Of a stretch of DNA of 64,000 nucleotides, positions 39,468 to 40,319 are shown piece by piece. Source of the DNA: a virus (taxonomy: Duplodnaviria; Caudoviricetes); IMG/VR virus record IMGVR_UViG_3300005613_000057, positions 2,022 to 66,021 of that record, one strand, 5' to 3'. Position numbers and translations under genes: made by a program. The notes beneath the pieces are model-generated. The model had not been told where the DNA came from. It was given only the letters and a program-made list of their open reading frames with translations, and ran no database searches. Each line of letters opens with the position of its first letter. The first letter of the stretch is position 1.

Positions 39468-39977
39468 TCATTGAAATCTTGGTATCCCTCTCCATATGTC
39501 ATCATCGTCATCATTGTTTTGTTTTCTTGAACTTTTCTCCGAAGCAGTGTTTCCAGAATCTCCGAAGAATCCTATGTCAGTATCTTCCATGTCTGGTGCT
39601 ACTTCTTTCAGTTGTTCAAGTATATCCTCTATGTTCACACCTTGCAAGTCTTCTTCGTCAATTTCCGATAGAGCTTCGTCAATGAAATCGTTGGACTTCT
39701 TTGCTTGAACATAATCTCGTATCAATTCCTTTTCCGGTTCCGAATGGGCAACGATAAATTCCTTCGGAAAGTAGTATCTTTGCGTCTTGGCAAATTCAAA
39801 CCACTTTCGGAAGGAAATACTGAAATACTTTATCTTGCCATTCTCAGTAACAGGAACTATTGAATACATCATCGGTCTATCAACAACAATTCCTTCGGAA
39901 TCAACTTTTATGACTCTTCCTATTATGTCGGATCCGTCTCTGAGTTTCAAAACTCTATGTCTGGGTCTTTTACTCAT
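39468..39977 (-). CDS. conserved T4-like hypothetical protein upstream of gp55
   Basis: LKL..G.DII pattern; position between uvsW and gp55. Confidence 0.7.
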   Translation of the reverse strand: MSKRPRHRVLKLRDGSDIIGRVIKVDSEGIVVDRPMMYSIVPVTENGKIKYFSISFRKWFEFAKTQRYYFPKEFIVAHSEPEKELIRDYVQAKKSNDFIDEALSEIDEEDLQGVNIEDILEQLKEVAPDMEDTDIGFFGDSGNTASEKSSRKQNNDDDDDIWRGIPRFQ

Positions 39978-40319
39978 GCTTCTTCCCCTTCCATAGTTAT
40001 TCTAGTTATGTCGTAGTCAAATTTTTCTTCGTTGTATATCTTTACTCTCTCAACCATATGCTTCAAAGTGTAGTTCTTGCGACTTTTCCACGAAAGGTCA
40101 TCTGCAATGTCAAAGAGTGTTGCTATCTTCTTTCCCTCACTTTTTCTGAGCTGTCTTCCAATACTCTGAAGAACACGAATTCTACTTTTCGATGGTGAAG
40201 CAAATATGATGTTCTGCAAACTCCTGATGTTGATTCCTGTTGAGAAAGGTTCCGAAGGAAGCAACTATAATACTACCTTCGCCTCCTTTCATCTCTTTAG
40301 TAATTTTATTTGGCTTCAT
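39974..40319 (-). CDS. uvsW: UvsW helicase C-terminal part; needs a +1 frameshift at codon 25
   Basis: ATG 40319 MKPNKITKEMKGGEGSIIVASFGTF, extra base, then STGINIRSLQNIIFASPSKSRIRVLQSIGR (motifs V-VI). Confidence 0.8.

What the first reader, a model, noticed from the sequence alone, without database searches (positions are those of the whole stretch)
39974..40319. Second +1 shift at a C-UUU-Y site, in UvsW helicase motif V
Seen: the UvsW C-part reads ...SIIVASFGT-F as ACC TTT CTC and stops after 45 codons. The conserved TFSTGINIR needs one base skipped (ACC TTT C TCA ACA GGA), compatible with a tRNA-Phe slip from UUU to UUC. This matches the gp47 case in direction, codon and placement: inside a conserved motif about 30-35 nt downstream of a foreign insertion. 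I saw no frameshift in the other conserved genes of the window despite many longer homopolymers, which argues against random error. Inference: a recurrent recoding signal that could also co-limit expression of two recombination enzymes.
Basis: partly seen in the sequence, partly recalled or inferred. Interest (0 to 1): 0.8.

Follow-up and report, generated by a model that had tools for sequence, protein, structure and literature searches.

The report
Frameshift signal inside mobile phage cassette
A marine T4-like phage carries one extra base after a TTT codon in its UvsW helicase gene (and another in gp47); the extra base belongs to a widespread mobile homing-endonuclease cassette and is conserved in a way that fits ribosomes deliberately slipping one base forward to make the protein.

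Summary
UvsW (minus strand) needs one base skipped at ACC TTT C TCA (40247-40244), and independent assemblies carry the same base.

It is not an isolated defect. The extra base is the 3' end of a mobile cassette: a C-terminal extension on the N-part, a homing endonuclease gene (deleted in this window, present in L001-L003), a new ATG, a recoded copy of motif V, then TTT+Y.

The relaxed pattern TT-N-N found 37 viral contigs and 22 UvsW-type metagenome contigs. All 59 read TTTC or TTTT.

Across 17 diverged lineages, variation sits at third codon positions of the upstream frame before the site and of the +1 frame after it. The third base of TTT never varies.

gp47 shows the same design in 46 contigs and 29 lineages.

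Best reading (0.75): an obligatory +1 ribosomal frameshift at UUU_Y built into a homing cassette. The closest parallel is the T4 gene 60/mobA bypass cassette.

There is no direct translation evidence and no cultured carrier. Exceptions exist (L137, and cassette-type C-parts without the shift). The two shifts assort independently, so the co-limitation idea is unsupported.

The parts
40306..41688 (-). UvsW N-part ORF (460 aa): UvsW_N, ResIII/DEAD helicase motifs, then a cassette-borne C-terminal extension. Its last codons and stop are the tail of the deleted endonuclease gene.
   Evidence: alignment with the insertion-less L004
40241..40484 (-). Extent of the mobile cassette in this window: about 196 nt absent from the insertion-less alleles L004/L005/L049, plus a roughly 40-nt recoded copy of motif V that differs from them at synonymous sites
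   Evidence: alignment
40317..40319 (-). ATG of the C-part ORF (conserved N-terminal extension beginning MKPNK), overlapping the end of the N-part/endonuclease frame
   Evidence: an ATG lies 21-22 codons before TTT in 25 of 29 distinct sequences, and 24 codons before it here
40282..40289 (-). Shine-Dalgarno-like AAAGGAGG inside the C-part ORF, 34 nt upstream of TTT
40244..40247 (-). Shift site TTT C. tRNA-Phe on UUU can re-pair with UUC one base on. C40244 is the base to be skipped.
39974..40243 (-). +1-frame continuation: rest of motif V, motif VI and the natural C-terminus of UvsW (89 codons plus stop)
40182..40184 (-). Stop of the unshifted frame, 20 codons after TTT
38048..38764 (-). GIY-YIG homing endonuclease gene (238 aa) directly upstream of gp47. 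Its last codons hold the GGAGGTG ribosome-binding site of gp47.
   Evidence: GIY-YIG E 3.4e-11
38014..38047 (-). gp47 start: ATG plus 10 codons carrying the D-x-H motif, then TTT T. T38014 is the extra base.
37015..38013 (-). gp47 body in the +1 frame

Best explanation
The extra C is the recoding element of a mobile homing-endonuclease cassette that has split UvsW.

The cassette consists of: a roughly 50-aa tail added to the N-part; an endonuclease gene (GIY-YIG in most lineages, HNH-like in some, lost in this window); a new ATG with a short N-terminal extension; its own synonymously recoded copy of the motif V strand; and a one-base insertion right after the Phe codon.

Inferred mechanism. 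Ribosomes start at ATG 40319 and read 25 codons. With peptidyl-tRNA-Phe on UUU in the P site they slip one base forward onto UUC (UUU in other lineages). They then finish the C-part in the +1 frame, and this C-part assembles with the N-part into a two-piece helicase. Ribosomes that do not slip end after 20 codons.

Shown here: the insertion is real, cassette-linked, widespread and under frame-specific selection.

Inferred only: that ribosomes make the shift, and how efficiently. A conserved Shine-Dalgarno-like element 33-39 nt upstream may stimulate the shift. By analogy with the 50-nt bypass of T4 gene 60/mobA, the insertion may protect the cassette-bearing allele from its own nuclease.
For: 1. 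Cassette linkage. Of 53 viral loci with a UvsW relative, 4 (L001, L002, L003, L010) are split and shifted like the window. 46 have one uninterrupted frame through the site, and 3 end before it. The near-identical alleles L004/L005/L049 lack both the insertion and the extra base.

2. Breadth. Pattern GGN ACN TTT Y TCN ACN GGN... found 37 viral contigs. The relaxed TT-N-N version found the same 37 and no other dinucleotide. In metagenome contigs, 22 of 22 UvsW-type hits are TTTC (15) or TTTT (7); the other 16 of 38 hits are unrelated genes.

3. Frame switch. In 17 lineage representatives (<90% identical), mean entropy by codon position is 0.37/0.37/1.35 in the upstream frame before TTT and 0.51/0.27/1.40 in the +1 frame after it. 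The third base of TTT has zero entropy, whereas neighbouring third positions have 1.3-1.9 bits. In-frame UvsW genes use TTT 14: TTC 6 at this codon.

4. Architecture. It is the same in all 24 distinct viral sequences: conserved MKP-type start, motif V strand, TTT+Y, then an open +1 frame of 84-91 codons to the natural end in 22 of them (L143 ends with its contig, L157 is broken). The unshifted frame stops after 4-23 codons.

5. Colinearity. P0121 aligns colinearly with T4 UvsW 2oca_A.

6. gp47. It repeats the design in 46 contigs and 29 lineages: TTT invariant, extra base C (24) or T (5), unshifted next codon CGG (24) or TGG (5). CGG is 1.3 per 1000 codons in this genome.

7. No second copy of gp47 or of the UvsW C-part in 5 records.

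8. Literature. [quoted passage not shown] The preprint 10.1101/2022.08.31.505936 (passages read) describes the MobA element with the same layout of C-terminal extension, nuclease, N-terminal extension, homologous replacement region and recoding cassette.
Against: There is no direct evidence of translation across the site. The one RNA run laid did not cover it.

No cultured phage with the cassette turned up in 5 searches of the phage collection, so viability of carriers is inferred.

Bare UUU_Y cannot be efficient. This genome has 214 in-frame TTT_Y sites in 18,286 codons, and 12 of 20 in-frame UvsW genes have TTT TCN at this very site. A stimulator or tolerance of low yield is therefore needed.

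No conserved RNA structure was found. The unshifted next codon in UvsW (CTC, 11.3 per 1000; or TTC) is not rare.

L137, a cassette copy in the window's own clade, has a different sequence of the same length with no slip site.

Cassette-type C-parts without any shift exist (P0003, P0124).

L157 has a further break.

The lineages share ancestry, so the counts are not independent events.

The patterns fixed the first two bases of several codons around the site. The entropy argument therefore rests on the positions outside them and on third positions.
Confidence: 0.75

Rival explanations
1. Dead gene riding on a selfish element: the cassette spreads by homing faster than the broken UvsW (and gp47) C-parts decay, so the intact downstream frames are merely young and no frameshifting occurs.
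For: Cassette-plus and cassette-minus alleles coexist in backgrounds about 97% identical, so invasions are recent. L137 has no slip site and L157 has a second break. By recall, T4 uvsW mutants are viable. No expression data exist.
Against: The cassette's own copy of motif V, which never comes from the recipient, keeps its amino acids through many synonymous changes across 17 lineages. TTT never becomes TTC, and the extra base is never a purine. A dead gene predicts none of this. gp47 is a core gene (essential in T4, by recall) and is single-copy in the 5 records searched. Its D-x-H motif lies upstream of the shift, so a downstream start would lack it. The shift persists after loss of the nuclease gene in several lineages.
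Confidence: 0.12
2. No frameshift: the C-part is started independently in the +1 frame (TTG 40264 in the window) and makes a 96-aa protein without the motif V strand.
For: A TTG, GTG or ATG lies in the +1 frame between its last stop and the site in 21 of 29 distinct sequences, the window included. In L137 this frame reads a better motif.
Against: 8 of 29 sequences have no such codon. Upstream of the site the +1 frame is not conserved: the variable position is its second codon base, and its peptides differ freely. These start codons are a by-product of Ile/Val/Ala codons in the other frame. The conserved ATG and the selection on the upstream frame would have no purpose. For gp47 a downstream start would lose the metal-binding D-x-H motif.
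Confidence: 0.06
3. Correction at another level: RNA polymerase slippage or editing removes a U, or a phage suppressor tRNA reads a four-base codon.
For: TTTT-type sites form runs of up to 5 T. Two carrier records encode their own tRNA-Phe(GAA) with an unusual G37.
Against: TTTC-type sites have only 3 T, too short for the known kinds of transcriptional slippage (established knowledge). Both phage tRNA-Phe genes, and the others listed, have ordinary 7-base anticodon loops. The window holds only tRNA-Leu and tRNA-Gln. A general four-base reader would hit the 214 in-frame TTT_Y sites.
Confidence: 0.05
4. Sequencing or assembly error at a short homopolymer.
For: The extra base adjoins a T run.
Against: The same base occurs in contigs from 37 different metagenome identifiers and in contigs of other runs. 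Among the 50 UvsW loci that reach the site, it occurs in the 4 cassette-bearing alleles and in none of the 46 uninterrupted ones.
Confidence: 0.01

Closest known systems
T4 gene 39/60 split with the mobA homing endonuclease and the 50-nt translational bypass (MobA element; preprint 10.1101/2022.08.31.505936 and review PMC5009743, passages read)
   Same: A free-standing nuclease gene splits an essential-type DNA enzyme gene inside a conserved domain. It adds a C-terminal extension to the first part. It adds an N-terminal extension to the second part, overlapping the nuclease gene's end out of frame. It carries its own diverged copy of the displaced host segment. The insert ends with a recoding element early in the downstream ORF (codon 25 here, 46 in T4). 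The nuclease gene is often decayed or lost while the recoding element stays.
   Different: The recoding element is one base at a UUU_Y slip site, not a 50-nt gap with take-off and landing codons. The nucleases are GIY-YIG (weak Pfam match; about 72% nucleotide identity to T4 segB over about 196 nt) or HNH-like, not MobA. The hosts are UvsW and gp47, not topoisomerase. Protection from cleavage is untested here.
+1 frameshifting at UUU_Y in bacteria (argI error site, Yersinia YopN-TyeA, an ICE excision activator; as summarised in PMC5009743) and influenza PA-X UCC_UUU_CGU
   Same: The same slip: tRNA-Phe moves from UUU to UUC or UUU. The main gp47 form, UUU_CGG, pairs it with a rare Arg codon, as in the classical test dicodon and as in PA-X.
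   Different: Here the shift is obligatory for a core enzyme, lies in a catalytic motif, and travels with a mobile element. The only conserved nearby signal is a Shine-Dalgarno-like element much further upstream (33-39 nt) than the 3-nt spacing of prfB.
Genes in pieces made by homing endonucleases (Aeromonas phage Aeh1 nrdA/mobE; 'fractured genes' with split inteins, PMC2677866, passages read)
   Same: A nuclease gene sits between two halves of a DNA-metabolism enzyme, with added tails. The nuclease can later be lost.
   Different: Those cases need no recoding. UvsW and gp47 are not among the enzymes listed in the passages read. No intein (Hint) domain was detected in the N-part tail.

Membership tests
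Programmed +1 ribosomal frameshift site | P-site codon whose tRNA can re-pair one base downstream | tested here: met
   UUU_C to UUC in the window. 59 of 59 UvsW-type hits and 46 of 46 gp47 hits are TTTC or TTTT.
Programmed +1 ribosomal frameshift site | Unshifted frame ends soon; the +1 frame encodes the conserved remainder of the protein | tested here: met
   Stop after 20 codons here and after 4-23 elsewhere. The +1 frame is colinear with T4 UvsW 2oca_A.
Programmed +1 ribosomal frameshift site | Conservation of the site, with purifying selection changing frame at it | tested here: met
   Entropy by codon position in 17 UvsW and 29 gp47 lineages; the third base of TTT is invariant.
Programmed +1 ribosomal frameshift site | Stimulatory signal (slow A-site codon, nearby Shine-Dalgarno, RNA structure) | tested here: inconclusive
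   gp47: rare CGG in 24 of 29 lineages. UvsW: CTC or TTC, not rare. No conserved structure. SD-like element 33-39 nt upstream in 25 of 25 shifted versus 12 of 37 in-frame sequences, of unknown effect.
Programmed +1 ribosomal frameshift site | Trans-frame protein made | not testable with these tools
   No proteome or ribosome data. RNA contigs do not cover the site.
T4 gene 60/MobA-type mobile recoding cassette | Nuclease gene between split halves, with added tails and a diverged copy of the displaced segment | tested here: met
   L001-L003 and 14 of 17 loci examined carry a 223-292-aa nuclease-sized ORF; the tails are conserved. Pfam named GIY-YIG or HNH in only 2 of the 4 such ORFs tested, both below the curated cut-off. 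The window and L010 have lost the ORF.
T4 gene 60/MobA-type mobile recoding cassette | 50-nt coding gap with matched take-off and landing codons, and a MobA (HNH) nuclease | tested here: not met
   One-base insertion, and a GIY-YIG or other nuclease. It works like the T4 cassette but is not a member.
T4 gene 60/MobA-type mobile recoding cassette | Recoding element protects the carrier allele from the nuclease | not testable with these tools
   Inference only. The insertion lies at the 3' edge of the co-converted tract.
Split intein ('fractured gene') | Hint domain blocks with catalytic residues flanking the nuclease gene | tested here: not met
No Hint/intein family among the Pfam hits of the N-part at E 0.01 or better.
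Group I intron | Match to an intron covariance model | tested here: not met
   Rfam scan of the whole window found only 2 tRNAs.
Pseudogene | Relaxed selection and further disabling changes | tested here: not met
   22 of 24 distinct viral sequences keep an open +1 frame to the natural end (L143 ends with its contig, L157 is broken), with strong third-position bias. L137 and L157 may be decayed copies.

The most novel reading that the evidence does not exclude
Homing-endonuclease cassettes of aquatic T4-like phages carry a complete portable +1 recoding module. The one-base insertion at UUU_Y makes the cassette allele immune to its own nuclease. A strong Shine-Dalgarno element placed so that a second ribosome sits exactly 10 codons behind the slipping one (the true start site in gp47, an internal element in UvsW) drives the shift by ribosome collision. 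A phage tRNA-Phe with G37 instead of the modifiable A37 may help.
Probability: 0.2. Interest if true: 0.9.

Novelty: new variant of a known kind. Interest (0 to 1): 0.8.

Why it matters
Until now the T4 gene 60 bypass and its relatives were the only known case of a mobile nuclease cassette that carries its own translational recoding signal. Here a second, simpler solution appears twice, in UvsW and in gp47. It occurs in dozens of diverged uncultured phages from many metagenomes.

If the shift is confirmed, three things follow. It would add natural, obligatory +1 frameshift sites in core phage replication and recombination genes. It would show that selfish elements can force their hosts to depend on recoding. 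It would supply a set of natural sequence variants for studying what makes UUU_Y efficient.

There is also a practical point. Gene callers split or truncate these genes, so UvsW and gp47 are mis-annotated in such contigs.

My four searches of the paper library (a fifth, asked about tRNA-Phe and miaA) found no description of a frameshift in uvsW or gp47 linked to a homing endonuclease. Subscription journals and supplements were not searchable.

Tried and rejected
Group I intron or other known RNA: the Rfam scan of the window gave only two tRNAs.

Conserved RNA structure around the site: RNAalifold on 17 lineages over four spans gave no structure. Pairing of the SD-like element with the slip site was rejected, because the Thr codon varies without compensation.

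Suppressor tRNA: the window has tRNA-Leu(CAA) and tRNA-Gln(TTG) only. The arrays in carrier records have normal loops.

The contrast for the G37 tRNA-Phe lead failed. The five shift-free records searched held no tRNA-Phe in the parts available. A similarity search with that tRNA found nothing useful.

Cultured carriers: five searches of the phage collection found only in-frame uvsW/gp47 or nothing. This is no proof of absence.

RNA evidence: the RNA run X15 had no contig over 40180-40671, so nothing can be said about transcripts.

Earlier scan notes by words gave only an unrelated nrdB case.

Complex prediction, structure prediction and fold search were not used. The split halves would pass by likeness to the solved UvsW, and a pass would not separate the rival explanations.

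I did not scan the window for further shifted genes.

Full report
**What is in the window.** The window is part of a 66-kb viral contig, estimated 36% complete, of a T4-like aquatic myophage. uvsW lies on the minus strand in three frames.

- The N-part ORF (41688..40306, 460 aa) carries the UvsW_N and ResIII/DEAD helicase domains. It ends in a roughly 50-aa tail that ordinary UvsW lacks.
- A second frame begins at ATG 40319, overlapping that tail. It reads a short extension and the motif V strand up to ACC TTT (40250-40245).
- The rest of motif V, motif VI and the natural C-terminus (to 39974) are one base further on.
- Reading TTTC as one step gives P0121. P0121 aligns without interruption to solved T4 UvsW, 2oca_A residues 394-500, E 2.4e-20.

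**The base is real.** L010, an independent contig 98.5% identical over 721 nt with no gaps, has it. So do L001-L003.

Logan contigs of other runs also span the site without an indel. These are X1 record 5 (39775-40401, 0 gaps) and X8 record 30, the nuclease-bearing form with 717 letters between 40330 and 40332. In X2 and X8 the commoner allele skips 40240-40484. These are contigs, not reads, so there is no true pileup.

**It belongs to a mobile cassette.**

- A full-length UvsW from L004 was compared with 53 viral loci. 46 have one uninterrupted frame through the site, 3 end before it, and 4 (L001, L002, L003, L010) are split and shifted like the window.
- L004/L005/L049 are near-identical to the window on both sides. 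They lack about 196 nt (window 40476-40281) and also lack the extra base.
- The roughly 40 nt between the insertion and the extra base encode the same amino acids with different codons. Identity resumes 3-4 nt after the extra base. This is a co-converted tract whose 3' edge is the shift site.
- In L001-L003 the insertion also holds a 234-aa GIY-YIG-type nuclease gene. The Pfam matches are weak. A relative's gene is about 72% identical to T4 segB over about 196 nt.
- The window's N-part ends with the last codons of that gene, so here the nuclease gene has been deleted.

**The same site occurs in many diverged phages.** A frame-C ORF search in the protein collection returned C-part ORFs only 66-71% identical.

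- GGN ACN TTT Y TCN ACN GGN RTN AAY AT found 37 viral contigs, each from a different metagenome identifier.
- Relaxing TTT-Y to TT-N-N found the same 37 and nothing else.
- In the metagenome collection the relaxed pattern gave 38 hits. 22 are UvsW-type (15 TTTC, 7 TTTT; 11 are sequences not seen before). 16 are unrelated genes with assorted dinucleotides.
- The carriers' UvsW N-parts are only 38-54% identical to L004.

All 24 distinct viral sequences share one plan:

- N-part with a conserved tail.
- A nuclease-sized ORF in 14 of 17 loci examined. Pfam named only some of them: HNH, weak, for the L146 ORF, and no family for the L151 and L143 ORFs. I read GIY-YIG-type N-termini by eye in most of the rest and an HNH-like motif in the L146/L150 and L149/L151 ORFs. 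All but the L143 ORF share a C-terminal region.
- An ATG with an MKP-type extension.
- The motif V strand, then TTT+Y.
- An open +1 frame of 84-91 codons to the natural end in 22 of them. L143 ends with its contig and L157 has a further break.
- The unshifted frame stops after 4-23 codons.

**Selection changes frame at the site.** In 17 lineage representatives (<90% identical over 127 nt) the mean entropy by codon position is as follows:

| Region | Position 1 | Position 2 | Position 3 |
|---|---|---|---|
| Upstream frame, before TTT | 0.37 | 0.37 | 1.35 |
| +1 frame, after TTT | 0.51 | 0.27 | 1.40 |

- Re-phasing moves the variable position accordingly.
- Gly and Thr before the site use several codons. 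The Phe codon is always TTT, and the extra base is C (11) or T (6).
- In-frame UvsW genes use TTT 14 times and TTC 6 times at this codon.
- The patterns fix the first two bases of six codons, so the argument rests on the other codons and on third positions.
- A dead gene or a separate start in the +1 frame predicts none of this.
- The +1 frame upstream of the site is unconserved. It has no ATG/GTG/TTG after its last stop in 8 of 29 distinct sequences. In the other 21, the window's TTG 40264 included, a separate start cannot be excluded on sequence alone.

**gp47.** The window's gp47 starts at ATG 38047, directly behind a 238-aa GIY-YIG gene (Pfam E 3.4e-11). It needs T38014 skipped after CAC TTT to join the D-x-H motif to the body.

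- Relatives without the nuclease gene (L055-L059) are in frame.
- L010, L049 and L060/L061 have lost the nuclease gene but keep the shift.
- L063 has the nuclease gene without the shift.
- A relaxed pattern found 47 contigs, 1 of them a GC-rich chance hit. All are TTTC (39, counting the chance hit L180) or TTTT (8) at codon 11.
- In 29 lineage representatives TTT is invariant and the phase switch recurs.
- The unshifted next codon is CGG in 24 and TGG in 5. CGG is the rarest Arg codon here, 1.3 per 1000.
- Each of 5 records holds one gp47 and one UvsW C-part locus.
- The two shifts assort independently. Of 30 gp47-shift loci with a readable UvsW motif V, 26 are in frame. Of 6 UvsW-shift loci with a readable gp47 start, 2 are in frame.

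**Mechanism.** UUU_Ynn is described as especially prone to +1 shifting in bacteria (PMC5009743, passages read). The simplest model is slippage of P-site tRNA-Phe from UUU to UUC or UUU.

A bare site cannot be efficient. The genome has 214 in-frame TTT_Y sites in 18,286 codons. No conserved RNA structure exists.

One conserved signal stands out: a Shine-Dalgarno-like run.

- It lies 33-39 nt upstream of TTT in 16 of 17 UvsW lineages.
- It occurs in two codon registers, which argues for an RNA-level role.
- With a looser motif set it is present in 25 of 25 distinct shifted sequences against 12 of 37 in-frame ones.
- In gp47 the true ribosome-binding site sits 38 nt upstream (8-nt spacer plus 10 codons).
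- Both layouts would place a second ribosome 10 codons behind the slipping one.
- Collisions are reported to alter frameshifting in bacteria (PMC6815119, abstract read). This link is my speculation.

**Why a one-base insertion.** The layout matches the MobA element of T4 gene 39/60 point for point, with a +1 site in place of the 50-nt bypass. That preprint reports that the bypass protects the allele from MobA (10.1101/2022.08.31.505936, passages read). I infer the same role here; it is untested.

**Against, and open.**

- There are no protein, ribosome or RNA data, and no cultured carrier.
- L137, in the window's own clade, has a decayed nuclease gene. At the site it has a different sequence of equal length without a slip site. 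It may be a dead or recombinant allele.
- P0003 and P0124 are cassette-type C-parts with no shift, so the shift is not obligatory for the cassette.
- The lineages share descent, so the counts overstate independence.

**Verdict.** The recoding reading is well supported by comparison (0.75). The finding is a new variant of a known kind, and I found no description of it in four literature searches.

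Noticed in passing
L238:3876-3951 (record G001) and L240:6670-6745 (record G004): Two carrier phage records with 25-27 tRNA genes encode a tRNA-Phe(GAA) with G at position 37. Their tRNAs for the other U-starting codons (Tyr, Cys, Trp, Leu-UAA, Ser-UGA) have A37. A tRNA-Phe that cannot receive the usual A37 modification might be more shift-prone. No shift-free relative with a tRNA-Phe was available for contrast.
   Followed up: partly
L137:1000-1060 (same contig as L057): A cassette copy in the window's clade whose nuclease gene has a one-base deletion. 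Its shift site is replaced by a recipient-like sequence plus an extra A, of the same total length and with no UUU_Y. The frame offset is kept without a slip site.
   Followed up: partly
L146:5563-6231, L151:4551-5426, L143:3123-3836 versus L001:2165-2866: The cassette nuclease ORFs differ in their N-terminal domains: GIY-YIG-type by eye in most, an HNH-like motif by eye in the L146/L150 and L149/L151 ORFs, and an unassigned type in L143. Pfam gave HNH (weak) for L146 and no family for L151 or L143. All but L143 share a C-terminal region, and the surrounding cassette is the same. This looks like domain swapping within one mobile element. gp47 cassettes show the same pattern.
   Followed up: partly
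L151:2855-3799, L149, L172:5736-5758: In some lineages a second split of uvsW occurs further upstream, near helicase motif II. It has a similar tail on the upstream piece and a new Met start on the downstream piece, but no frameshift.
   Followed up: no
window 40309-40484 (-): The tail added to the UvsW N-part is conserved across cassette lineages. Pfam gave no Hint match.
   Followed up: partly
P0003, P0124 (protein collection): Cassette-type UvsW C-parts with an MKP-type start and an in-frame motif V, i.e. no shift. They are either ancestral forms or revertants.
   Followed up: no
L279:1986-2338 (record G010): A T4-like phage record with an in-frame gp47 encodes a tmRNA gene inside its tRNA cluster.
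   Followed up: no
window 20282-20895: The scan's notes mention a split intein in gp46 of this same genome. I did not examine it.
   Followed up: no
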